64,000 nt of DNA from a virus. The stretch's first letter is position 1. Each line of letters starts with the position of its first letter. A model generated the notes under the pieces. That model did no database searches. It had not been told where the DNA came from and saw only the letters and a program-made list of their open reading frames with translations. This document shows positions 7,621 to 43,377 of this stretch, piece after piece. The stretch lies in UHGV virus genome UHGV-0248979. One strand, given 5' to 3'. The translations under genes were made by a program, and so were the position numbers.

Positions 7621-8884
7621 AATAGTCTTCCACGATTTTATCGGTAGACTGGTAACTTACACTGCCTGCAGCAATCACGTAATTACGTTTCTCAGTGGTC
7701 AGTAGTGCCTGAATCGCATTTACGCCCGCGTAGGTGTAAAGTTTAAGTTCAGTCATCTCCGGCGTGATGTTCTTCGCTTTGTCCCACTTTGCATCTAATC
7801 CTTTAAATAGCGTTAATAGGCGAGTACCATACGTTTTGAAACTGACACCAGGTTCAACCCGAAGGTTAGCCATGAGGTTTTGGATAACGGTGGTTGCGAT
7901 CTGGGTTCCTTGTCCTGGTTGGAGTTTATCCAGATAGTATTCCGTTGAATCCAGATTACCTGTCGCTGCCGCCTGAATCATCAACTCGCCGTACAGTACC
8001 TCTTTTGCTTGTGTGTCGGTAATCGCTTGAAGCATCGGTTCGATTTTAGCCGGTAAACCATAACTGTTCAGTTTGGTAGATAGGCCATAAATCAGTGCTG
8101 AAGAGGTATTAATGTCTAACGTGGAGAAACTGTCGCTGCCTTTAAAGCTGTTAATCAGGTTATCGATGGCTAAGAAGTCGTCTAAGTCTTTGTAGCTGTC
8201 GAAAGTATGTTGTACGTCATCAACGATCGAGGTGATTTGATAACGCATACTGTTGACTTCGGACATAAACCCGTTGACTTCTTGACTAACTTCCGAGGGG
8301 AGTTTAGCCAATTGCCCAGCAATGTTCATCGTCCCTTCGAGACGTTTTTTCACCGAGTTAAAGTCAGTACCGATACCGGATAAAACGGAGTCGGTTAAGC
8401 TGCCGATACTATCCCACCCTTTACCTAACAGCTTCCCCATCCCACCTGGACTTAGGTAGTCTAGTGCTTTTAGGCCATCTTCATCCTTTTTCTTAAAGGG
8501 TTCAGAAACGTCACGCTTTTGTGGGTCGAGGACAGGAAGCGTTTCTTTGGTATTAGATGCAAAACCGGGAACCTTTTGTCCTGGCGACACCCCGGAGGCT
8601 GAACTCCCCGCAGTCTTAGTTCCCCCAACACTGGCGGTATCGCTACCGCCAAAAAGGTTACCAATTTTACTGGTCAGCTCGTTGCCGCCGCTAATGAGTT
8701 TGTTGAAAGTTTCACCAGCGCGGTCTGATAGTCGGCTGACGCTATCGACCGTGTTCTTAATACCACGCTCCGCATTTTCCACTGTTGTTTGTACGCGGTT
8801 TGTGGCGCTCTTTGCCGTATTAACGGAATTATCGATTGCCGACTGACCTTTATTTATCTGACTGGTTATTTGGTCGATTTTCAT
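7610..8884 (-). CDS. hypothetical Ser/Thr/Gly-rich protein (424 aa)
   Basis: ORF; start moved to ATG with SD GGAGA. Confidence 0.5.
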   Translation of the reverse strand: MKIDQITSQINKGQSAIDNSVNTAKSATNRVQTTVENAERGIKNTVDSVSRLSDRAGETFNKLISGGNELTSKIGNLFGGSDTASVGGTKTAGSSASGVSPGQKVPGFASNTKETLPVLDPQKRDVSEPFKKKDEDGLKALDYLSPGGMGKLLGKGWDSIGSLTDSVLSGIGTDFNSVKKRLEGTMNIAGQLAKLPSEVSQEVNGFMSEVNSMRYQITSIVDDVQHTFDSYKDLDDFLAIDNLINSFKGSDSFSTLDINTSSALIYGLSTKLNSYGLPAKIEPMLQAITDTQAKEVLYGELMIQAAATGNLDSTEYYLDKLQPGQGTQIATTVIQNLMANLRVEPGVSFKTYGTRLLTLFKGLDAKWDKAKNITPEMTELKLYTYAGVNAIQALLTTEKRNYVIAAGSVSYQSTDKIVEDYFAI

Positions 8885-10274: not shown

Positions 10275-10345
10275 AATTCACTCCTAAAGAATGTCTCACG
10301 TAGATAATATCTGTCTGACTTCTTTTTGAAATTGAGGTAGTAAGA

Positions 10346-19394: not shown

Positions 19395-19430
19395 TCTAAT
19401 AACTCCAATGGTGTTACACCTGGATAATAT

Positions 19431-20099
19431 CTATCTAAGAATATTTTTAATGAAAAAAGGATCGGCTGTAAACTCCTTCACTTGTGAGTCATAACCCGAA
19501 TGTATTTGATCGCTACTGAGCAAATACTGGTCTAGGTCGTGCGGAAGAATCCAAGAATCACCTTGCTTAAAAATACCATAATCTGCTGTTCCTGCGGAAA
19601 AAATGATTTCCTCTGGAAACGAATAGACACGGCGTAAGGCAAGATCGGATGGCTTTAACACGATTAATCGAACGGGATGTTGACTGACTGCCTCTTTAAT
19701 AAACTGTTCACGATTAAACCAAATTATTTTTTCGGGGTAAGTTTCGAATTCAGCCCATGCCCGCGTGATAACTAATTTGGAAATCTTTCTCAATTCTTCA
19801 GAACGCTCTGCGTAGCCGATGCACTCCTTGCGTACTTCATGATTTTCTATCGATGTTGTGAATTTTTGGAATAGGTGTTGTTGGAAAAAGCCGTTCTCCG
19901 GGATATCACAACCCGCGTTGTATAGTGCAATGATCTCCCACAACAACGAAAGAGAAAACACAAATGCTAACTTTTCCACAACTTCCCAATCTTCGGAGTA
20001 AGGGGCTTTAAAGCCCCAATACTGCCGTGCGTTATACATAAAGTGAGTTTGTAAAAACCGAGGGGCTTTTGACAAGACCTCACTATAAACGATCAGCAT
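19431..20099 (-). CDS. hypothetical protein (222 aa)
   Basis: ORF. Confidence 0.5.
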   Translation of the reverse strand: MLIVYSEVLSKAPRFLQTHFMYNARQYWGFKAPYSEDWEVVEKLAFVFSLSLLWEIIALYNAGCDIPENGFFQQHLFQKFTTSIENHEVRKECIGYAERSEELRKISKLVITRAWAEFETYPEKIIWFNREQFIKEAVSQHPVRLIVLKPSDLALRRVYSFPEEIIFSAGTADYGIFKQGDSWILPHDLDQYLLSSDQIHSGYDSQVKEFTADPFFIKNILR

Positions 20100-22439: not shown

Positions 22440-22898
22440 TCAGTACAAACACGATGTCAAGTATTGGTTATACGAATCGAGCAGTGCCTGACGGTCGGAA
22501 CGGTAATTCCACAACAAATTATTGAGTTTACGCGATAAATCACGGCTAATCTCCTGGGCCGTTAAAGAGCTCTCATCAAGAAACATGCGCTCAGGTACAA
22601 CGTGTAATTTCGGTAACTCATAGCGTTCACAAAGTGGAGCCAACATTGGTGGACTCCAGCCACGTTTAGCGGCTTGCTGGTTTAAATTTCGTGTGTAGAC
22701 ATAAACGTAATAAGCATAGGTGTTGACATCTGCAACATACTCACGCATTGCATTCTTGTCAATTTTCCAATTCACCATTATTGGCGGTTCAGGAGGAAGT
22801 TCCAGTGGTCTATAAGCTGGACGTTTAACTTCGTCACCGTAGCTATTACTCACCAACCCCACGAACACTACCATGATGAATAATAGCATTTTCATCAA
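22440..22898 (-). CDS. secreted hypothetical protein with signal peptide (152 aa)
   Basis: N-terminal MMKMLLFIMVVFVGLVSNSYG hydrophobic signal. Confidence 0.55.
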   Translation of the reverse strand: MMKMLLFIMVVFVGLVSNSYGDEVKRPAYRPLELPPEPPIMVNWKIDKNAMREYVADVNTYAYYVYVYTRNLNQQAAKRGWSPPMLAPLCERYELPKLHVVPERMFLDESSLTAQEISRDLSRKLNNLLWNYRSDRQALLDSYNQYLTSCLY

Positions 22899-27078: not shown

Positions 27079-27558
27079 TTAAAACAGTGGTAAGTTACGC
27101 CATTGACCTACCGAGTAAAAAGCTTTTGGATGTTTGCGGATATACGCTTTCGCTTCTTCTGGCAACCAACGATCGCCTACCAGTTTTTGTTGCGCAACAA
27201 TTACCGCCAACAGTAAATACGGGTTTTTCGCACCGGGGAACTTTGCATTGGTTTCTAGCGCAATATCTAACATTGACGACCAGCCCAGTAATTTACGTTG
27301 CGCCGGTAAACGTCCTTCAATAAACATTAGCCAGTCCATGATTTGTCTGGGTTTATACGGACACGTATAATTCGCCCAACTCACCATGGCGAACTTAATA
27401 GCCTTCGCAATAACCCATACAGGAACTGCCACGAAAAGACAGAAAATGGTCAACTGTGAGGCAGGTGCATCGATAAAAGTAACCGCTACAAGAACCATAC
27501 ACAGTTCAAGCACCACAAACCAAAAACGTGTTGGATAACGCCAAATGAATTTTATCAT
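27079..27558 (-). CDS. membrane protein, two N-terminal TM helices (159 aa)
   Basis: Hydrophobic stretches FWFVVLELCMVLVAVTFI and LTIFCLFVAVPVWVIA. Confidence 0.5.
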   Translation of the reverse strand: MIKFIWRYPTRFWFVVLELCMVLVAVTFIDAPASQLTIFCLFVAVPVWVIAKAIKFAMVSWANYTCPYKPRQIMDWLMFIEGRLPAQRKLLGWSSMLDIALETNAKFPGAKNPYLLLAVIVAQQKLVGDRWLPEEAKAYIRKHPKAFYSVGQWRNLPLF

Positions 27559-27624: not shown

Positions 27625-28134
27625 TTAGAAGAACGGCCGATTTGGAATGACAGCGTACTCTAAAATGAACATGTGCTCTGGGGCGTCTTCTTTACGCCAG
27701 ACTTTGTGTGTTAACACAAGTTTTTCCAGAATCGTTAGAAAACTACGCTGGCAGTATGTGTTTTCGCCAAGTAGCAGTTTCTGAAGTTCTACAGTAGCGT
27801 CCATATACGCCTGTTTAAAGACTAGGCTACGGTTATACTGTCCGGTAAAATTCCAAAGCAAGACTTTCCCTTCTTCGGTTTCTTTTACCGTTGGACGTAA
27901 ACCACAAATCCACAGCAAGGCAAGGTTGACGTTCCAGTCAAACTCTAAACCTTCCTCTTCGTCATCACCGAATGCTGTAGGTAAAGCATCGTAAAATTCG
28001 TGTTTCTCTGCGAATTCTTCATCCGATTTAATCTCGTCTTCGATGCTGCTTCGGACGATACCGTAAATGTCTTTCGCGGTTAGTTGTGCGGCTTTTGTAA
28101 TGCCTTTATACCAATCGGTTACAACGATGCTCAA
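27625..28134 (-). CDS. hypothetical protein (169 aa)
   Basis: ORF; start overlaps upstream stop. Confidence 0.5.
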   Translation of the reverse strand: MSIVVTDWYKGITKAAQLTAKDIYGIVRSSIEDEIKSDEEFAEKHEFYDALPTAFGDDEEEGLEFDWNVNLALLWICGLRPTVKETEEGKVLLWNFTGQYNRSLVFKQAYMDATVELQKLLLGENTYCQRSFLTILEKLVLTHKVWRKEDAPEHMFILEYAVIPNRPFF

Positions 28135-28829
28135 AGGGTAACTCCTCTATTGATTGGAAAACTCGTGTTTATCGTATCCCAAATTTTACTAACTTCCGCC
28201 AATTGAATCTGACGTGATGTTTTCTTCGCAAACGCAAGCTGACGTGGGGCCGAGCCCACAACAACAGGCACATCGATTTTCGCGCTATAGAACGCGGCAT
28301 CTTTCATAAAGCCTGCCATTTCTCGTTGTGCTGCTCGAGATTTGCTTTTGATTCGCGTGTGAGCGCCACTTTCACCCCAGTGGTAAGCTAACGCAACTTC
28401 AGCCATGGTGGGCTTGCGTTTGAGTCGTTTGGTTAACCCCTTCTCAAGATGTTTAACATACGCGGTAGCCAGCAAAACAGCGTTACGCGGATTATACAAA
28501 TCGGCGTTCTGACTAAGACCTAATTCTTTTCCATAAAGCTTTAGCAGACTACGCTTGGTACTTGGAAGCATCTGTACCAGGCTGTGTGCCCGTGAGCTTT
28601 TGTTGTAAGCCTTGGGATCAAAACGTGATTCGCGATAAATCAGCGTAATCATCAGCTTAGGATCAACGCCTTGCTTTCGTGAGATTTCCACAATTAACGG
28701 ACTGACTTTTTCGAACCGATGTTGGATTTGTGTAAACTCACGCTGATGTTTAGTTTGTGGCGTTGACGTTGACGCCTGTGCGTTAAACGCGAAAAGTGTT
28801 ACCAGTAAAAGAAAGAAGATACGAAACAT
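28131..28829 (-). CDS. secreted lytic transglycosylase (SLT domain) with signal peptide (232 aa)
   Basis: Signal peptide MFRIFFLLLVTLFAFNAQAS; SLT-like YRESRFDPKAYNKSSRAHSLVQMLPST; start moved to ATG with SD GGAGA. Confidence 0.65.
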   Translation of the reverse strand: MFRIFFLLLVTLFAFNAQASTSTPQTKHQREFTQIQHRFEKVSPLIVEISRKQGVDPKLMITLIYRESRFDPKAYNKSSRAHSLVQMLPSTKRSLLKLYGKELGLSQNADLYNPRNAVLLATAYVKHLEKGLTKRLKRKPTMAEVALAYHWGESGAHTRIKSKSRAAQREMAGFMKDAAFYSAKIDVPVVVGSAPRQLAFAKKTSRQIQLAEVSKIWDTINTSFPINRGVTL

Positions 28830-33678: not shown

Positions 33679-34287
33679 TTATTTGGTATACGGCTGATAA
33701 CCCATTGAAGTCCAATAATCGATATTCTTCGCGTTTTCTACCCAAACCTGTCCCGCCTTTGTGGCTAAGACTTCCATTGTCAGTGCACAGATCAGGTTTG
33801 TTACCGGAATGCAATTTCCTGGCGTAACGTCGTCCAGATAAACCGGGTATAAAAACGGTGATTTAATGGATTGGTACGGATAAGAATAGTGATTGCCGAC
33901 CTTCCACCCTTCCTCTACAGGACAGAGATTAAACGTACGTGTTTCTGGAACTGCGTTTTCAGAGATCCAGTTAACAACATCGGCTTTAATTCGGTCGTGG
34001 TCGATATAGTAGAACACGACACGTTGTGGGATACTTGTGGTACCAGCCGGGTCTAAAGCCTCCAACGCCTTGAAAGGCGTCGTTAACAATGTTGAACTGT
34101 TCTCAAGTGCGTAAACCAATTTTTCGTAAGCAGTCGGCGTTTTACGTTTAAAATACTCCCGTAAGCGTGGATACGCCAGGAAGCCCTCTACTTCCTCTTC
34201 CATTAAGTCGATGAATAAAGGCGTATGCGAATAACGCTCTGCATTTTGCATCGCTTCAAGAAAACGAACTAATGTAATTTCGTTCAT
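33679..34287 (-). CDS. hypothetical protein (202 aa)
   Basis: ORF; no Mre11/SbcD phosphoesterase motifs seen. Confidence 0.5.
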   Translation of the reverse strand: MNEITLVRFLEAMQNAERYSHTPLFIDLMEEEVEGFLAYPRLREYFKRKTPTAYEKLVYALENSSTLLTTPFKALEALDPAGTTSIPQRVVFYYIDHDRIKADVVNWISENAVPETRTFNLCPVEEGWKVGNHYSYPYQSIKSPFLYPVYLDDVTPGNCIPVTNLICALTMEVLATKAGQVWVENAKNIDYWTSMGYQPYTK

Positions 34288-34343: not shown

Positions 34344-34820
34344 TTATAGCCCTAAGTGCGTGAGTGATAAAATAGGCTGTGTTTCACCTTTAATCGTCGC
34401 GAAGGAACGATACATTTCTGCGTTACTTGAAAAAACTTCGTTAGCAACGATACATTCACCCGTCTCTAAAGAAAGGAGATAAATGTAGTCGCTCCATACG
34501 CTTTGTACCAATACCCATTCGAGCGCGGTGTCATTTTCGCGTGTTGTCCGCAGGTGGTGAAAGTAAGGCCGGATTGCGTCGACCGCTGCATTAAAACGGC
34601 GATGATAAATTCGGGTTAAATCAAATGTCCAGATTGTTTCCAGGTCAACTGGGTGTAATGTGCGCACAGTGTCGATAATCGTCGACTGATCGTTAAGGCG
34701 TGCGGCTTCAGCGATGCGCAGCAGTTTCCAGGCCACCGTTAAGTTGTGACGAATTTGTTCAGGTTTAGCCGACAGGTCATGATGAAATTGCGCAGCTTGA
34801 TAGACGTTAGATAATTGCAT
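34344..34820 (-). CDS. hypothetical protein (158 aa)
   Basis: ORF. Confidence 0.5.
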   Translation of the reverse strand: MQLSNVYQAAQFHHDLSAKPEQIRHNLTVAWKLLRIAEAARLNDQSTIIDTVRTLHPVDLETIWTFDLTRIYHRRFNAAVDAIRPYFHHLRTTRENDTALEWVLVQSVWSDYIYLLSLETGECIVANEVFSSNAEMYRSFATIKGETQPILSLTHLGL

Positions 34821-34857: not shown

Positions 34858-34878
34858 GACCCCGGACATTCCGGGGTC
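34858..34878 (-). terminator. hairpin GACCCCGGA...CCGGGGTC
   Basis: 8-9 bp GC stem, A-run upstream on plus strand. Confidence 0.5.
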
Positions 34879-34888
34879 AAGACTACAC

Positions 34889-35278
34889 TCAATGATCTAA
34901 TTCGATAGCGCCAGCCATCTTGCCCCGTTCTTCGATAACGATCAGATAACGGTCGCGAGATTTGCTTTTAGCGAGAGTTAAGACAACAGTAGGGTCGCAC
35001 GTTTTCGTGGTGATAGGAAGAACCTCTCTTGCAACGGAATCGAGTAGAAAGTAATAACCTGCGGGACACATTGTGCCACCATCAGCTTTTACCAGAATAT
35101 AGCGCCCGTCTGCGCCGACTTCTTGGCAGATTGTTTCACCGACTTCACAAACTTCAAACCCCGGGGGATTATACTGATAATCGGTATTGTTGTTTGAGGT
35201 TAGCAGTAAATCATTAACCTGGGTAGATGCCGCTACACTCAGGGAGAAGAAGAATGCTAAAGCGCAGATGAGACGCAT
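34889..35278 (-). CDS. secreted Cys-containing small protein with signal peptide (129 aa)
   Basis: Signal MRLICALAFFFSLSVAAS; several Cys in mature part. Confidence 0.55.
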   Translation of the reverse strand: MRLICALAFFFSLSVAASTQVNDLLLTSNNNTDYQYNPPGFEVCEVGETICQEVGADGRYILVKADGGTMCPAGYYFLLDSVAREVLPITTKTCDPTVVLTLAKSKSRDRYLIVIEERGKMAGAIELDH

Positions 35279-35288
35279 GAGTTACTCC

Positions 35289-35699
35289 TTAAATTTTAAG
35301 TTTATCCATAGCTACAACGATAGGTTTTTCCGAAGTGTCTAATATCCCTACCATCGGTACACCATTTTTGATTTCGAAGAACGGTTTGTTATTGCCAGAG
35401 CACAAACGTTTGTCGTTGTATTCGAGACGTTGTGCCTTCCACGTTTCGAGGTTGAGTACGGACATAGGGCTGTCGTAGCACCAGGCCCCACCCTGCTCAA
35501 CGATGAACACGTATCTGCTACCTTTGTATTTAAACAGGCTCTTCGCCTGACAGTACAGGCCGTCAATTTCTGTACAGTAGAAATCGTCGGCACTATTGAC
35601 GTACTTAATTCCAGCTGGCAACTGTGTTATTTTTGCTGATACGTTAACAGAGAACAGAATAGCAATTGCAATGAGAAGAGTGTTGATGATAGTTTTCAT
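35289..35699 (-). CDS. secreted small protein with signal peptide (136 aa)
   Basis: Signal MKTIINTLLIAIAILFSVNVSA. Confidence 0.55.
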   Translation of the reverse strand: MKTIINTLLIAIAILFSVNVSAKITQLPAGIKYVNSADDFYCTEIDGLYCQAKSLFKYKGSRYVFIVEQGGAWCYDSPMSVLNLETWKAQRLEYNDKRLCSGNNKPFFEIKNGVPMVGILDTSEKPIVVAMDKLKI

Positions 35700-35709
35700 G
35701 ATAAACTCC

Positions 35710-36195
35710 TTAGTATTTAGATTGTTCTACGTACTTCTTAACCAGATAACCGAATTCAGCAACGCCGATTTCGCCGAACCAAACCAGATAACCGGGGTCG
35801 ATGTTGTAGTAATAACCGACGAGTTTCTTGGTGTGTGGGTTGTATAGCGTTACGATATATTCCCAGCCACAAGCGTTAGCTTTACAACCACCACTTTCAA
35901 TCCAGATTTTGTTGTTGATATTTACCGGATACATGTTACCGCCAGGGCCATCCATGTAACCTTTAGAGCCGAACATTCCATCCAGTCCCACCGGATCTAG
36001 TGTTTTATCAACAACACCTTTAAATGACTTATCGGTATCGTACAAGTCGTTGATGTTTGGACACGCATTTGGCTGACCTTCCCGAGCGTTCCCATCGCAG
36101 GTAAGCAATTCGTCTACGGAGGCCGCATCTACAGTAGGTGTGGCACCGATAAACAAGAAAACCAGAAAGAACATCAGTGTATGTAAACGTTTCAT
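35710..36195 (-). CDS. secreted small protein with signal peptide (161 aa)
   Basis: Signal MKRLHTLMFFLVFLFIGATPTVDA. Confidence 0.55.
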   Translation of the reverse strand: MKRLHTLMFFLVFLFIGATPTVDAASVDELLTCDGNAREGQPNACPNINDLYDTDKSFKGVVDKTLDPVGLDGMFGSKGYMDGPGGNMYPVNINNKIWIESGGCKANACGWEYIVTLYNPHTKKLVGYYYNIDPGYLVWFGEIGVAEFGYLVKKYVEQSKY

Positions 36196-36213
36196 TGTGA
36201 CTACTCCTTTAGA

Positions 36214-36606
36214 TTATTCAGCAGGACGATTTAAAGTAACACGGCCAATTAATTCGGCGTTATGAAAGAAGTCCACAGCGGTATAGTTACCAACTGATAA
36301 CGGATGTATGCTAACCGACATGACTTTTGGTTGTTCACAGGCGATATCGGTCAAACGTTGGTAGACTTGTGCACGGGTGTCAGCAATGAGTAATCCTGTA
36401 CATGTTTCACCACGTACTAAACGATAAACTTGCAGTTTACCGAAACTGCGCATTAACGTAGGTGTCTCATCCGGGTTGATAATCGGTGAGTCAGGAGCGG
36501 GTTCGTAATGGTTGACATCCGAACCGCCGAAAGCGTAAGTGCCAGTAATGCCGATTGCACAGAAAACAATGATAGTATAAAGTATAGTTCTAATATTCAT
36601 TTTCAC
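36214..36606 (-). CDS. secreted small protein with signal peptide (130 aa)
   Basis: Signal MKMNIRTILYTIIVFCAIGITGTYA. Confidence 0.55.
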   Translation of the reverse strand: MKMNIRTILYTIIVFCAIGITGTYAFGGSDVNHYEPAPDSPIINPDETPTLMRSFGKLQVYRLVRGETCTGLLIADTRAQVYQRLTDIACEQPKVMSVSIHPLSVGNYTAVDFFHNAELIGRVTLNRPAE

Positions 36607-36628
36607 GCACTCTAAAAAAGATTAATAC

Positions 36629-37090
36629 TTATTTGTTAGGACGGGTGTGTCCACAGTTCTGGAAGAAAGTTTCAGATAGACGTTCGCCTTCTACGGTAAA
36701 GTTAGCGGCGTCATTACCATTGATACTCACGCTGAAATTTTTGGCATTACCGATAGCATTAACGAAAGCAACCCAAGCGAGTTCTGCTTTGTCACTACCA
36801 TCCACGGTAGGGATGTTATAGGTTTTGCCGTTTACGACAATATCCATCGTGTTATCTTCAGCGTTAGTTGCACCTACAGGTTCCCCGTAATACCAAACCA
36901 TGCGACCGTAAAATTTGCGATTCGCGGTTTCAGTGTCACAGTTGATAGACAGTCCGTTTCCGGTGGTGTCTTCGATTTCGTAAACTGCCTGACCAGGGTT
37001 CTGTATTTGTTCCCAGCTGTTGATAGCGGCGTGTGCAGTATTGAATCCGAAAGTTAAAATGGTTACTAAGAACGCGATAAAAGTTTTCAT
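36629..37090 (-). CDS. secreted small protein with signal peptide (153 aa)
   Basis: Start moved to ATG with SD AAGGAG giving signal MKTFIAFLVTILTFGFNTAHA. Confidence 0.55.
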   Translation of the reverse strand: MKTFIAFLVTILTFGFNTAHAAINSWEQIQNPGQAVYEIEDTTGNGLSINCDTETANRKFYGRMVWYYGEPVGATNAEDNTMDIVVNGKTYNIPTVDGSDKAELAWVAFVNAIGNAKNFSVSINGNDAANFTVEGERLSETFFQNCGHTRPNK

Positions 37091-37136: not shown

Positions 37137-37508
37137 TTAAATGAGAAAGTGGGCAACTCTTTTAATCTGTCTATAACTATCATCGATACCTCTTATTATT
37201 TCCAGACGTTCTTCTGAAGAAAGGCATTGGTTAATGTCTTTGTCAAGATTGAACAATGTCATGAGTTTTGCAATCGAAACTGCCAGGTTGTCCGATAGCT
37301 CGTTGTTTTTACGCCATTCTTCGTTACGGAAAATACAGATAAGGTCTTTCACCTGGTTTTCAGCGAGCGGTTTGGCTAACTGTGCGTCGCGCTGTTCGAG
37401 AAGGTATGCTTCGTTGGTAAGTAATTGTTTCAGGTCTTCTGGGTAAAGGGCAGCGCGAGTAACGATCAGTAATACAACAAACGGGTCTTTGAACAATTCG
37501 TTTTTCAT
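37137..37508 (-). CDS. hypothetical protein (123 aa)
   Basis: Start moved to ATG with SD AGGAGA. Confidence 0.5.
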   Translation of the reverse strand: MKNELFKDPFVVLLIVTRAALYPEDLKQLLTNEAYLLEQRDAQLAKPLAENQVKDLICIFRNEEWRKNNELSDNLAVSIAKLMTLFNLDKDINQCLSSEERLEIIRGIDDSYRQIKRVAHFLI

Positions 37509-37546: not shown

Positions 37547-37571
37547 ACTGAACTCTCACCTAAGTAATATA
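37547..37571. promoter_or_regulatory. conserved 25-nt AT-rich element CACCTAAGTAATATATATCTGAAAT (copy 1), promoter-like
   Basis: Near-identical (24/25) to copy at 41946-41970; 39 nt upstream of the minus gene start at 37508. Confidence 0.4.
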
Positions 37572-37612
37572 TATCTGAAATTATTTTTAATGTTGACGAA
37601 CAAAAAATAAAA

Positions 37613-37632
37613 GGTGGGGGTAAACCCCCACC
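37613..37632 (-). terminator. hairpin GGTGGGGG-TAAA-CCCCCACC
   Basis: 8-bp stem, A-run upstream on plus strand. Confidence 0.55.
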
Positions 37633-37636
37633 GACG

Positions 37637-38215
37637 TTATACATCGAACCGATACTGCCGGGAGTTAATGAGGAACTCAGTATTCAGCTCAATCCATTCG
37701 AGTAAATCCCCCAACGGTAATCGGTTTGGGTTTTCTAACTCGATAGATGCAACCGGATAAGAGTTTACTAATTCCGTAATCGCCTCAATGCCCTCTTGCG
37801 TTCCATCGTCTTCTAAGGTGATTGTAAACGGCATATCGGTACGTTCCGCATTAGGATTGTACAAACTGACTTTCGTTGCTTGCACAAACGCAGTCAGGTC
37901 GTCTCGCATAATGCGAATATCTGGCGCTAGAACTACCCAGAGATGTTGCCCTGGCTGGAGTTTACGTTTTGCGTAGTTTACGAAAGGACTTGCCGTCAAG
38001 TTATCTAAACCACAACAGATGTTACGTAAACGAATTCCGCGCGGATCTTTGTAATCCACGTCGAAAATCCCCACAGGTTCATTCGCTGCCCGCTTTATCA
38101 GAAAGGCTAATACCGTGTCCGCTCTTTCTGGTAAGGAAAGCTCTATTCCCTCAAGCTCCCCATCGACGAGATTTTCTAACCAAACGTCTTTTCGCATTTC
38201 TATTAATCGGTACAC
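37637..38215 (-). CDS. hypothetical protein (192 aa)
   Basis: ORF. Confidence 0.5.
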   Translation of the reverse strand: MYRLIEMRKDVWLENLVDGELEGIELSLPERADTVLAFLIKRAANEPVGIFDVDYKDPRGIRLRNICCGLDNLTASPFVNYAKRKLQPGQHLWVVLAPDIRIMRDDLTAFVQATKVSLYNPNAERTDMPFTITLEDDGTQEGIEAITELVNSYPVASIELENPNRLPLGDLLEWIELNTEFLINSRQYRFDV

Positions 38216-41945: not shown

Positions 41946-41970
41946 CACTTAAGTAATATATATCTGAAAT
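41946..41970 (+). promoter_or_regulatory. conserved 25-nt AT-rich element CACTTAAGTAATATATATCTGAAAT (copy 2), candidate promoter for the virion gene block
   Basis: 26 nt upstream of the ATG at 41996; contains TATATAT -10-like core. Confidence 0.4.
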
Positions 41971-43167: not shown

Positions 43168-43377
43168 ATGTCTATTAAAGAGTTCTCTTCTGCTGAGCAT
43201 ATTCCAGAAGAGTTTAAGAAAATCGGTAACGTTAGCGCTTTCGGCGATACCGTTGATCATGTAACTGGTAAACTGGCTGCTGAAGCCGAAAAAATTGGCG
43301 GCGACGCATTCAAAGTTATCGGTATTTCCGGCAACAACAAACTGCACGGTAACGCGATTGTCTACAAAAAAGACTAA
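43168..43377 (+). CDS. DUF1471 (YdgH/BhsA/McbA-like) domain small protein lacking a signal peptide (69 aa)
   Basis: Pattern EF...G.VS...DTVDHVTGKLAAEAEKIGGDAFKVIGISGNNKLHGNAIVYKK matches the BhsA-family fold signature; SD GGAG. Confidence 0.6.
   Translation: MSIKEFSSAEHIPEEFKKIGNVSAFGDTVDHVTGKLAAEAEKIGGDAFKVIGISGNNKLHGNAIVYKKD

What the first reader, a model, noticed from the sequence alone, without database searches (positions are those of the whole stretch)
34889..37090. Run of five consecutive small signal-peptide proteins in the minus-strand early-like block
Five adjacent genes (129-161 aa) each begin with a typical Sec signal peptide (MRLICALAFFFSLSVAAS; MKTIINTLLIAIAILFSVNVSA; MKRLHTLMFFLVFLFIGATPTVDA; MKMNIRTILYTIIVFCAIGITGTYA; MKTFIAFLVTILTFGFNTAHA) and contain paired cysteines, consistent with periplasmic disulfide-bonded proteins. 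They are mutually dissimilar. A lytic-phage-like genome exporting five different small proteins to the host periplasm suggests envelope remodelling, superinfection exclusion, receptor masking or interference with envelope-located defences.
Basis: partly seen in the sequence, partly recalled or inferred. Interest (0 to 1): 0.6.

Follow-up and report, generated by a model that had tools for sequence, protein, structure and literature searches.

The report
Jumbo-phage early operon of exported proteins
A giant phage switches on, from an early-type promoter, a tightly packed operon of five small proteins destined for the host periplasm; one is a divergent relative of the bacterial lysozyme/lytic-transglycosylase inhibitor Ivy, and pieces of the operon also sit in E. 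coli genomic islands, where a preprint reports that a protein with the same Ivy-like loop restricts phage T7.

Summary
Five adjacent minus-strand genes (34889-37090) each have a Sec-type N-terminus and 2 or 4 conserved cysteines in the mature part. They form one unit: terminator, phiKZ-type early promoter motif, a lineage-specific extra gene, the five genes (gaps of 10-22 nt), terminator.

The window is an undescribed SPN3US/phiEaH2-like jumbo phage.
- w4, w2 and w1 correspond to SPN3US gp180, gp182 and gp183.
- "Mutually dissimilar" is only partly right: w1 and w2 are remote paralogues.
- w5 belongs to the YfjT family (E. coli CP4-57).
- A contiguous [w4-w3-w2] segment (~70% nt identity) occurs in enterobacterial CP4-type islands. 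A preprint reports that knockdown of an E. coli Ivy-like protein with the same loop as some of these (CKANTC) improves T7 plaquing.

Most likely role: early-made periplasmic inhibitors that block cell-wall-cleaving enzymes of competing phages (Spackle-like exclusion). The main rival is control of the phage's own exported SLT endolysin. The functions of w1, w2, w4 and w5 remain unknown.

The parts
37613..37632 (-). Intrinsic terminator ending the upstream gp177-like gene; it marks the upstream boundary of the unit
   Evidence: GGTGGGGGTTTACCCCCACC followed by a T-run
37557..37580 (-). phiKZ/OBP-type early (virion RNAP) promoter motif TTTCAGATATATATTACTTAGGTG, preceded by an AT-rich tract up to ~37595
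   Evidence: It matches with 0 mismatches my 24-nt consensus adapted from the promoter table in PMC7058600. The window has 4 sites against 0 expected. 41 nt are 100% identical to phiEaH2. The same motif lies just upstream of the homologous block in all 12 related loci examined.
37137..37508 (-). wU: first gene of the unit (123 aa from the ATG with an AGGAG SD). It has no signal peptide, is a lineage-specific insertion, and is not part of the exported set
   Evidence: The 'GTG 37559' start is actually the GTG of the promoter motif. The gene is absent from the close relatives L011 and L020. It hits PHROG 27024 and has only weak hits to T4_y05I_N and AbiA.
36629..37090 (-). w5: exported YfjT-family protein (153 aa, 2 Cys in the mature part)
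   Evidence: Homologues at 75-93% identity carry the precomputed Pfam family PF27224 YfjT. blastp to K-12 YfjT gives E 8e-14. hhalign to YfjT/YkfB gives 99.5%.
36214..36606 (-). w4: exported or signal-anchored protein, homologue of SPN3US gp180 (PHROG 9424)
   Evidence: 50% identity to gp180 and 45% to phiEaH2 AFQ96649. PHROG E 5e-41. A decayed copy lies upstream of the Ivy-like gene in E. coli islands.
35710..36195 (-). w3: exported Ivy-superfamily protein with the disulfide loop C104-K-A-N-A-C109
35289..35699 (-). w2: exported protein, homologue of SPN3US gp182 (PHROG 8968); paralogue of the gp181 family and, remotely, of w1
   Evidence: An intact homologue (65% identity) follows the Ivy-like gene in a Klebsiella island copy.
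34889..35278 (-). w1: exported protein, homologue of SPN3US gp183 (PHROG 5248); the best-conserved member, at 48-54% identity across genera
34858..34878 (-). Intrinsic terminator 10 nt after the w1 stop codon; it marks the downstream boundary of the unit
   Evidence: GACCCCGGAATGTCCGGGGTC followed by a T-run
28131..28829 (-). Exported SLT-domain lytic transglycosylase (signal peptide MFRIFFLLLVTLFAFNAQA|S). It is the clade's 'putative endolysin' and a candidate self-target of w3. It lies outside the operon
   Evidence: Pfam SLT E 5e-15. About 50% identity to genes annotated as endolysin or transglycosylase in SPN3US-like phages. Signal-peptide scan.

Best explanation
The five genes are the exported cargo of one early transcription unit of an SPN3US-like jumbo phage. 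Soon after infection the virion RNA polymerase would transcribe the unit. The products would be exported by Sec, lose their signal peptides (w4 may stay anchored) and be oxidised to disulfide-bonded periplasmic proteins.

w3 uses the Ivy scaffold: a five-stranded sheet presenting a disulfide-clamped hairpin loop, here CKANAC. With it, w3 would bind and block a peptidoglycan-cleaving enzyme in the periplasm. The most likely targets are virion-borne lysozymes or lytic transglycosylases of phages that try to superinfect the same cell. That would work like T4 Spackle, but on an unrelated fold. The other four proteins (the w1/w2 paralogues, w4 and the YfjT-family w5) are inferred to be further periplasmic binders in the same envelope-level competition role.

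The slot between w4 and w2 is exchangeable. It holds a gp181-type protein in SPN3US, phiEaH2 and L009, and an Ivy-type protein here.

Shown: gene structure, operon boundaries, the promoter-motif match, the Ivy fold and homology of w3, YfjT membership of w5, the shared [w4-w3-w2] segment, and the island copies nesting inside this phage lineage. Inferred: the phage-to-island direction of transfer, export, early timing, inhibition of a muralytic enzyme, the identity of the target, and the roles of w1, w2, w4 and w5.
For: Anatomy. Terminator, then early-promoter motif, then genes with 10-22 nt gaps and AAGGAG SDs, then terminator. The motif has 4 sites against 0 expected and fits the published phiKZ/OBP/N1M2 early-promoter consensus. 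It precedes the block in all 12 related loci examined.

Export. The five have top-ranking signal-peptide scores and even Cys counts.

Ivy-type inhibitors insert a loop between antiparallel strands into the lysozyme active site, and T4 Spackle is an early periplasmic inhibitor of the gp5 tail lysozyme that causes superinfection exclusion (PMC7677548). Ivy also controls lytic transglycosylases (Clarke 2010, as cited in PMC3660660).

An E. coli O121 Ivy-like protein with loop CKANTC limits T7: its knockdown raises EOP (bioRxiv 10.1101/2024.04.20.590424). The same loop occurs in family members P0011, P0012, P0015 and L021.

Islands keep w3 (with w2, or with a decayed w4) but without any phage SLT gene in the stretches examined, so the function does not need the phage's own endolysin.

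The loop residues vary between alleles (CKANAC, CKSDAC, CKAHAC, CKANTC, CKSNAC). w3 is only 61% identical between two phages whose w4 is 92% identical. This is as expected for a target-matching surface.
Against: No biochemical or expression data exist for any of the five genes, or for SPN3US gp180-183.

The window's w3 lacks a histidine in the loop (Asn instead). From my memory of Abergel 2007, that histidine is the residue that plugs c-type lysozyme. So inhibition of any enzyme is unproven, and the target may not be muralytic.

w3 fails the Pfam and NCBIfam thresholds directly.

The T7 phenotype comes from a preprint, and identity of its protein with this family rests on the loop motif and the described Ivy-like fold. 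That protein is a related bacterial one, not the phage copy.

The phage exports its own SLT enzyme, which is an obvious alternative target.

w1, w2, w4 and w5 have no fold or function assignment. The w1 model was poor.

The promoter class is inferred from a motif, not from transcript data.
Confidence: 0.45

Rival explanations
1. Self-control of lysis. w3, and perhaps its neighbours, binds the phage's own Sec-exported SLT 'endolysin' (28131-28829) in the periplasm. This keeps it inactive until lysis time, or prevents premature wall damage.
For: The phage exports an SLT-domain protein that relatives annotate as endolysin or transglycosylase. Ivy is reported to inhibit lytic transglycosylases. 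In E. coli phage PHB10 the only canonical Ivy homologue found in 50,697 phage records lies about 1 kb downstream of the endolysin gene.
Against: SPN3US, phiEaH2 and L009 have the SLT homologue or the block but no Ivy-type gene. Bacterial islands retain w3 with or without w2, with no phage SLT in the stretches examined. Early expression of an inhibitor would need a release mechanism that is not evident.
Confidence: 0.2
2. Host envelope takeover. The exported proteins inhibit host lytic transglycosylases or other periplasmic enzymes. This would stabilise or remodel the sacculus of the enlarged infected cell, block lysis-from-without, or disable envelope machines (pili, T6SS, flagella) that need lytic transglycosylases.
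For: Ivy's proposed physiological role is control of bacterial lytic transglycosylases. The core genes are conserved across Salmonella, Erwinia, Cronobacter and Proteus phages, which suggests a conserved host target.
Against: The w3 loop and sequence vary strongly between close phages, which fits variable targets better than conserved host enzymes. The reported T7 phenotype of the E. coli Ivy-like protein points to a phage-related effect, although an indirect effect through the wall is possible.
Confidence: 0.17
3. Classical Ivy role. w3 protects the infected (gut) host cell from animal c-type lysozyme during the long jumbo-phage cycle, and the other genes are unrelated morons.
For: Ivy fold and periplasmic location. 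Relatives come from gut or cloacal enterobacteria.
Against: The loop histidine is replaced by Asn in the phage copy. The tight conserved operon argues against unrelated morons.
Confidence: 0.05
4. The hydrophobic N-termini are membrane anchors or chance features, and the proteins act at the inner membrane or in the cytoplasm (for example in the early infection vesicle) rather than in the periplasm.
For: No signal-peptide predictor could be run. The h-region of w4 is long, and in phiEaH2 it looks like a possible anchor.
Against: All five have n-h-c organisation with A-x-A-like sites, and even numbers of conserved cysteines. In the alignment of w3 with 28 relatives, nearly all have hydrophobic N-termini. 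Ivy and the other bacterial lysozyme inhibitors act in the periplasm.
Confidence: 0.05

Closest known systems
Ivy (inhibitor of vertebrate lysozyme; Pfam PF08816; PDB 1GPQ/1XS0 from E. coli, 1UUZ from P. aeruginosa)
   Different: Only 14-15% identity, and below the Pfam and NCBIfam thresholds. The loop is CKANAC, with no His. There is an extra N-terminal Cys pair. It is encoded by a phage, inside an operon of other exported proteins. The target is unknown.
E. coli O121 Hypo_04657 (PHAGEPACK preprint, 10.1101/2024.04.20.590424) and the CP4-type island homologues P0002-P0015
   Same: The island homologues are the same subfamily (57-65% identity to w3), with the same signal peptide (MKRLHTLM...) and loop variants CKAHAC and CKANTC. 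In islands the gene is flanked by w2 or by a w4 remnant, as in the phage. The preprint's protein has the CKANTC loop and an Ivy-like domain.
   Different: The bacterial copies are chromosomal or plasmid-borne and sit next to dynamin-like, patatin and DUF932 genes. Some are fused to the N-terminus of an upstream gene. The T7-restricting phenotype was shown for the bacterial protein only.
T4 Spackle (gp61.3)
   Same: A phage-encoded, early, Sec-exported small periplasmic protein that inhibits a muralytic enzyme (the gp5 tail lysozyme) and so gives superinfection exclusion. This is the proposed way w3 works.
   Different: Spackle is an alpha-helical bundle acting allosterically (PMC7677548), with no homology. 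w3 is a beta-rich Ivy fold with an insertion loop.
SPN3US gp180-gp183 / phiEaH2 AFQ96649-52 (PHROGs 9424, 8968, 5248)
   Same: Orthologous, syntenic block upstream of gp184-gp185-SbcC, with the same early-type promoter motif just upstream.
   Different: Those phages have a gp181-type protein where the window has the Ivy-type w3, and they lack YfjT-family genes. All are annotated as hypothetical.
E. coli K-12 YfjT / YkfB (CP4-57 and CP4-6 islands; Pfam PF27224)
   Same: w5 is a family member (hhalign 99.5%). Both are small, have a signal peptide and two cysteines.
   Different: 25% identity. The function of the family is unknown. The bacterial genes are paired with the lipoprotein YfjS or YafY.
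Escherichia phage PHB10 hypothetical protein QBJ00744.1
   Same: The only other phage-borne Ivy-family gene found (40% identity to E. coli Ivy).
   Different: It is a canonical Ivy type, in a 57-kb phage, next to the lysis genes. It is not related to w3 at the BLAST level.

Membership tests
Ivy superfamily (PF08816 / NF007443) | Ivy fold: helices plus a five-stranded antiparallel sheet | tested here: met
Ivy superfamily (PF08816 / NF007443) | Disulfide-clamped C-x4-C-G loop between the same two strands | tested here: met
   CKANACG aligns with CKPHDCG. C104, K105, C109 and G110 are invariant in the close family, and C104 and C109 are invariant across all 29 aligned sequences.
Ivy superfamily (PF08816 / NF007443) | Histidine in the loop (CKPHDC motif) | tested here: not met
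   The window has Asn107. His is present in the E. coli homologues P0002 and P0003 (CKAHAC) and in most distant relatives (C-E/K-x-H-N/D-C).
Ivy superfamily (PF08816 / NF007443) | Sequence match to the curated family model above threshold | tested here: not met
   No Pfam hit. NCBIfam 18.2 bits against a cut-off of 180. Transitive links exist: hhalign w3 to distant Ivy 99.7%, distant Ivy to E. coli Ivy 97.1%, and Pfam Ivy hits 25 of 29 aligned relatives.
Ivy superfamily (PF08816 / NF007443) | Inhibits lysozyme or lytic transglycosylase | not testable with these tools
   Needs enzymology or binding assays.
YfjT family (PF27224) | Sequence homology to E. coli YfjT/YkfB over the full length | tested here: met
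   Homologues at 75-93% identity to w5 carry the precomputed PF27224 family. blastp E 8e-14. hhalign 99.5%, E 1e-22. The model is absent from the local Pfam copy.
SPN3US gp180-183 exported block | Orthology and synteny upstream of gp184-gp185-SbcC | tested here: met
   w4 = gp180 (50% identity), w2 = gp182 (29%), w1 = gp183 (48%); flanks gp177, gp184, gp185 and gp186. w3 and w5 are not part of the SPN3US set.
T4 Spackle-type superinfection exclusion protein | Homology or fold of Spackle (helical bundle) | tested here: not met
   w3 is a beta-rich Ivy fold. No Pfam or PHROG link to Spackle. The analogy is functional only.
T4 Spackle-type superinfection exclusion protein | Excludes superinfecting phage by inhibiting its tail lysozyme | not testable with these tools
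   Needs plating and enzyme assays.
Lipoproteins / o-spanins | Lipobox [LVI][ASTVI][GAS]C at the end of the signal peptide | tested here: not met
   No lipobox in w1, w2, w3 or w5. w4 has a Cys in the h-region (IVFC), but it is not conserved as a lipobox in homologues (LAAC, IAVC, none).
YfjS/YafY lipoprotein domain (PF20494), considered for w1 | Significant profile match | tested here: inconclusive
   The hhalign alignment is co-linear over 90 columns with a shared C..G.YY.L.D...V.P...C motif, but probability is 2.7% (E 0.017). There is no Pfam hit.

The most novel reading that the evidence does not exclude
SPN3US-like jumbo phages carry an early-expressed, fast-diversifying cassette array of periplasmic inhibitors used in phage-versus-phage warfare at the cell envelope. 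Enterobacteria have repeatedly captured pieces of it ([w4-w3-w2], and perhaps the yfjS-yfjT pairs of CP4-57 and CP4-6) into CP4-type islands as anti-phage defence. If so, a class of E. coli y-genes of unknown function would be domesticated jumbo-phage exclusion genes.
Probability: 0.3. Interest if true: 0.8.

Novelty: new variant of a known kind. Interest (0 to 1): 0.66.

Why it matters
Envelope-level functions of jumbo phages are essentially undescribed. A 2026 review of jumbo-phage biology never mentions periplasm, signal peptides or superinfection exclusion. SPN3US gp180-183 are unannotated.

An Ivy-type inhibitor scaffold in a phage has not been described, as far as these searches show:
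- w3 has no match in 50,697 phage records.
- Canonical Ivy has one unannotated match.
- The viral structure library gave no match.

If w3 blocks muralytic enzymes of competing phages, it would be a second, independently evolved Spackle-like mechanism.

The shared [w4-w3-w2] segment gives a concrete, testable case of bacteria co-opting phage exclusion genes. It also offers functional leads for the E. coli y-ome proteins YfjT and YkfB and for the T7-restricting Ivy-like protein. Practically, such genes could affect the compatibility of phages in a cocktail.

Tried and rejected
- **Direct Pfam, NCBIfam and PADLOC scans of the five proteins.** Nothing passed a threshold. The only useful lead was a sub-threshold NCBIfam Ivy hit.
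- **Sequence searches of w3, w5 and the w3 profile against PDB.** No Ivy hit, only noise.
- **tblastn of w3 and w5 against phage records.** No match.
- **BFVD search with the w3 model.** No hits.
- **Idea that all five are Ivy-like paralogues.** Rejected. hhalign of w1, w2, gp181, w4 and YfjT against Ivy or w3 gave low probabilities: at most 3% except w2 against the distant Ivy set (10.8%), which aligned only 14 columns.
- **Idea that w4 is a paralogue of w1 (PHROG cross-hit).** Not supported once signal peptides are removed (0.6%).
- **w1 vs YfjS/YafY.** Suggestive motif, but not significant.
- **Sigma-70 promoter scan.** Fewer hits than chance, so uninformative.
- **The 8-mer TATATTAC alone.** Not enriched; only the full 24-nt motif is.
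- **Literature.** Nothing on SPN3US gp180-183 or on YfjT function. Abergel 2007 could not be read, so the role of the loop histidine is from memory.
Full report
**1. What is in the sequence.**
The five minus-strand ORFs exist exactly as described: w1 34889-35278, w2 35289-35699, w3 35710-36195, w4 36214-36606 and w5 36629-37090. The gaps between them are 10, 10, 18 and 22 nt. w1, w2, w3 and w5 have AAGGAG Shine-Dalgarno sites, and w4 has a poor one. For w5 the internal ATG at 37090 is the start with an SD; the longer ORF to 37183 has none.

SignalP was not available. I scored n-region charge, h-region hydrophobicity and the -3/-1 rule over 75 non-overlapping gene-like ORFs. The five ranked among the top scorers (5.7-7.1), and only about three other ORFs in 64 kb came near them. 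A run of five adjacent ones is expected at roughly 1e-3 by chance (my arithmetic). The mature parts contain 4, 4, 4, 2 and 2 cysteines, and these are conserved in homologues.

**2. The transcription unit.**
A strong hairpin with a T-run (37632-37613) ends the upstream gene. Another (34878-34858) follows w1 by 10 nt.

Between the first terminator and the genes lies TTTCAGATATATATTACTTAGGTG (37580-37557), preceded by an AT-rich tract. A megablast of the region against phages found only this element, 100% identical over 41 nt to Erwinia phage phiEaH2. PMC7058600 tabulates the predicted promoter of phiKZ-related jumbo phages: N1M2 ...WWWWWTTTCARRYAKATATTATYWAAGTGWA, 201phi2-1 ...TATATTACDWHDGTG, phiKZ TATATTAC. 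It notes that the motif was judged early in OBP. A 24-nt consensus that I adapted from that table hits the window four times, all on the minus strand and two of them perfect, against zero in 100 shuffles. The same motif lies on the coding strand just upstream of the homologous block in all 12 related loci examined; in SPN3US it is 77 nt before gp180. Early, virion-RNAP-driven expression is therefore a well-founded inference, but it has not been measured.

The first gene of the unit is wU (37137-37508). It has no signal peptide and is absent from close relatives. Its apparent GTG start at 37559 is simply the GTG of the promoter motif.

**3. Which genome.**
No phage record is close at the DNA level. 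Protein synteny shows an SPN3US/phiEaH2-like jumbo phage, as tabulated below.

| Window gene | SPN3US counterpart | Identity |
|---|---|---|
| SbcC-like | gp186 | – |
| 33679-34287 | gp185 | 40% |
| 34344-34820 | gp184 | 33% |
| w1 | gp183 | 48% |
| w2 | gp182 | 29% |
| w4 | gp180 | 50% |
| 37637-38215 | gp177 | 31% |

Uncultivated relatives of 220-227 kb carry the same block. A 222,441-bp circular "plasmid" of Enterobacter ludwigii (NZ_CP134650.1) has the same gene order and is 77-88% identical over the matched stretches, which cover about 9 kb of the block region and 44% of the other 24 kb tested. It looks like the complete genome of a related jumbo phage filed as a plasmid.

**4. Relationships among the five.**
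I compared profiles of the mature regions only, so that shared signal peptides could not drive the scores.
- w2 vs the gp181 family: 97.5% (E 8e-12).
- w1 vs w2: 54% (E 1e-4). w1 vs gp181: 51%.
- A w2 HMM picks w1 as the only other ORF in the window (E 1e-4).
- w4, w3 and w5 are unrelated to the rest.

So "mutually dissimilar" is only partly right: w1 and w2 are old paralogues.

The slot between w4 and w2 is variable. It holds a gp181-type protein in SPN3US, phiEaH2 and the Salmonella-associated contig L009. In L009 that protein carries a w3-type signal peptide. The slot holds w3 in the window lineage. Relatives L008-L010 have two YfjT-family genes; the window has one, plus wU.

**5. w3 is an Ivy-superfamily protein.**
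- NCBIfam gave a sub-threshold hit to "Ivy family C-type lysozyme inhibitor" (E 0.0018).
- The close family (alignment A1) has an invariant C104-K-x-x-x-C109-G-W.
- I verified the E. coli Ivy sequence and the CKPHDCG loop against 1GPQ, 1XS0 and 1UUZ.
- hhalign puts CKANACG in register with CKPHDCG over 75 columns, but at only 27% probability.
- An AlphaFold model (pLDDT 71, pTM 0.65) shows helices, a five-stranded sheet with the Cys loop between strands 2 and 3, and a C-terminal helix.
- An exhaustive HMMER search with the family profile found 54 relatives. I aligned w3 with two close homologues and 26 of the more distant relatives. The loop consensus is C-[EKQ]-x-H-[ND]-C-G, and Pfam Ivy recognises 25 of the 29 aligned sequences.
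- Locally, w3 family to distant Ivy scores 99.7%, and distant Ivy to E. coli Ivy scores 97.1%.
- The E. coli homologue P0002 matches plasmid genes that PGAP names Ivy family (E 3e-16).

One defining feature is not met. The phage loop is CKANAC, with Asn where canonical Ivy has His. w3 also does not pass the curated thresholds directly. I therefore file it as a divergent member of the superfamily, not as a demonstrated lysozyme inhibitor.

**6. w5 is a YfjT-family protein.**
Homologues at 75-93% identity carry the precomputed PF27224 "YfjT" family. blastp to K-12 YfjT gives E 8e-14. The second copy in relatives is 38% identical to YfjT. hhalign to YfjT/YkfB gives 99.5%. YfjT is uncharacterised. 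In K-12 it sits in CP4-57 next to the lipoprotein YfjS, and its paralogue YkfB sits in CP4-6 next to YafY.

**7. Gene flow with bacterial islands.**
w3 has 57-65% identical homologues on E. coli chromosomes; P0002 alone was seen on 864 contigs. They lie in the cargo region of CP4-type islands: dynamin-like GTPase, YjcZ/RdcB, patatin, a 180-aa protein, the Ivy-like gene, DUF932, antirestriction, RadC, DUF987 and CbeA/CbtA.

The DNA similarity (70-72%) extends beyond w3.
- Upstream, in all five E. coli loci, there is a frameshifted remnant of w4. Its C-terminal 54 aa are 78% identical to w4. Its N-terminal 50 aa are 46% identical in another frame. The short spacing to the Ivy-like start codon is preserved.
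- Downstream, in a Klebsiella oxytoca plasmid copy of the island, there is an intact w2 homologue, 65% identical over all 136 aa, after a 15-nt gap.

w4 and w2 belong to families conserved in SPN3US-type phages that lack w3. The island w2 is 76% identical to the Enterobacter phage copy but only 34-38% identical to SPN3US-type gp182. The w4 remnant is 78-81% identical to this lineage against 53-55% for SPN3US-type copies. The island copies therefore nest inside this phage lineage. Transfer of a [w4-w3-w2] fragment from phage to island is the parsimonious reading, but it is an inference.

w3 itself is mosaic. The two phage alleles are only 61% identical to each other although the adjacent w4 is 92% identical. 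The loop differs between alleles: CKANAC, CKSDAC, CKSNAC, CKAHAC, CKANTC.

**8. Functional evidence from the literature.**
[quoted passage not shown] T4 Spackle, an early periplasmic protein, inhibits the gp5 tail lysozyme and so causes superinfection exclusion (PMC7677548).
- Ivy, with its CKPHDC motif, also controls bacterial lytic transglycosylases (Clarke 2010, as cited in PMC3660660).
- The PHAGEPACK preprint reports an E. coli O121 hypothetical protein with an Ivy-like domain and loop "CKANTC". Its knockdown increases T7 fitness and plaquing. That loop is the one in P0011, P0012, P0015 and the Klebsiella island copy.

So a protein that appears to be a bacterial homologue of w3 has experimental support as a phage-restricting factor. 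The authors suggested T7 lysozyme as its target. I think a periplasm-acting virion enzyme, such as the transglycosylase domain of T7 gp16, is more plausible; that rests on my own knowledge and was not tested.

**9. Best explanation and rivals.**
The most likely reading is an early operon of exported periplasmic binders used in competition at the envelope. w3 would act as an Ivy-type inhibitor of muralytic enzymes of incoming phages. This works like Spackle but is not a member of that family.

The strongest rival comes from the window itself. ORF 28131-28829 has a classical signal peptide and an SLT domain (Pfam 5e-15), and it is the clade's "putative endolysin/transglycosylase". w3 could hold that enzyme in check. 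In phage PHB10, the only phage record with a canonical Ivy homologue, the gene lies beside the lysis genes. Two facts argue against this rival. SPN3US-type phages have the SLT gene without an Ivy-type gene. Bacterial islands keep w3 and w2 with no phage SLT gene in the stretches examined.

Other rivals are inhibition of host transglycosylases, and classical protection from animal lysozyme. The functions of w1, w2, w4 and w5 remain open. The only structure attempt, on w1, failed.

**10. Novelty.**
- w3 has no tblastn match in 50,697 phage records.
- Canonical Ivy has one, unannotated.
- The viral structure library has no match.
- SPN3US gp180-183 are not discussed in the genetics and virion paper.
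- A 2026 review of jumbo phages does not mention periplasm, signal peptides or superinfection exclusion.

The kind of system is known: a periplasmic proteinaceous inhibitor scaffold, and phage exclusion through a periplasmic lysozyme inhibitor. This instance is a new variant of it. What is new is the Ivy scaffold in a jumbo phage, its place in a conserved early operon of five exported proteins, and the evidence of exchange with bacterial islands.

Noticed in passing
window 37557-37580, 41946-41969, 19417-19440, 10297-10320 (all minus strand): A repeated phiKZ/OBP-type early-promoter motif, TTTCARRYAKATATTAYYWARGTG. Two copies are perfect and two have 3 mismatches, against 0 expected by chance. 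It is 100% conserved over 41 nt with phiEaH2, although at a different genome position there.
   Followed up: yes
window 28131-28829 (-): The clade's 'putative endolysin' is an SLT-domain lytic transglycosylase with a classical cleavable signal peptide (MFRIFFLLLVTLFAFNAQA|S). It would therefore be exported before lysis. How its activity is restrained is unknown. The neighbouring ORF 27079-27558 appears, from reading its sequence, to have two hydrophobic segments and could be a holin candidate.
   Followed up: partly
L020 = NZ_CP134650.1 (Enterobacter ludwigii 51A:C 'plasmid unnamed1', 222,441 bp): This record, deposited as a non-mobilizable plasmid, has the same gene order as the window and is 77-88% identical to it over the matched stretches. 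It appears to be the complete circular genome of a related jumbo phage carried by (or co-assembled with) an Enterobacter isolate. A Salmonella assembly contig of 223,413 bp (L009) is similar.
   Followed up: partly
L003-L007 ~7687-7979; L021 3806-4915: E. coli CP4-type islands carry a frameshifted w4 pseudogene upstream of the Ivy-like gene. A Klebsiella island copy carries an intact w2 homologue (WP_000846713.1) downstream of it. The 223-227-aa E. coli 'Ivy-like' proteins are fusions of the N-terminus of the upstream 180-aa gene with the Ivy-like ORF.
   Followed up: yes
L009 7427-7879: In this relative the slot between w4 and w1 holds a gp181-type protein that carries the w3-type signal peptide (MKRLHALMF...). 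w2 is missing and the ORF called at the w4 position is only 79 aa. This suggests cassette exchange with a crossover inside the signal-peptide coding region.
   Followed up: partly
window 37137-37508 (-): wU, the first gene of the unit, is absent from the close relatives L011 and L020. It has only weak hits: PHROG 27024, Pfam T4_y05I_N at E 0.02, and PADLOC AbiA/DRT at E 2.6e-4. The listed GTG start at 37559 is part of the promoter motif.
   Followed up: partly
window 34889-35278 vs K-12 YfjS (L017 14682-15125) and L003 7098-7640: The Cys-bracketed core of w1 (C-PAG-YYFLLD...V.P...C) resembles the lipoprotein YfjS/YafY (C-EGGSYYYLVD...VQP...C) and the 180-aa island protein. The hhalign alignment is co-linear over 90 columns but has only 2.7% probability. 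If the link is real, the yfjS-yfjT pair of CP4 islands would mirror the phage block.
   Followed up: partly
window 43168-43374 (+): A YdgH/BhsA-like (DUF1471) gene, 100% identical to the copy in L008. It has no signal peptide, unlike the bacterial family, which I recall as periplasmic.
   Followed up: no
window 22440-22898 (-): Another small ORF with a signal-peptide-like N-terminus (MKMLLFIMVVFVGLVS|N). It has no Pfam hit.
   Followed up: no
L019 = Escherichia phage PHB10 MK524177.1 14588-15001: The only canonical Ivy homologue in the phage collection (40% identity to E. coli Ivy). It is annotated as hypothetical and lies about 1 kb downstream of the endolysin gene.
   Followed up: partly
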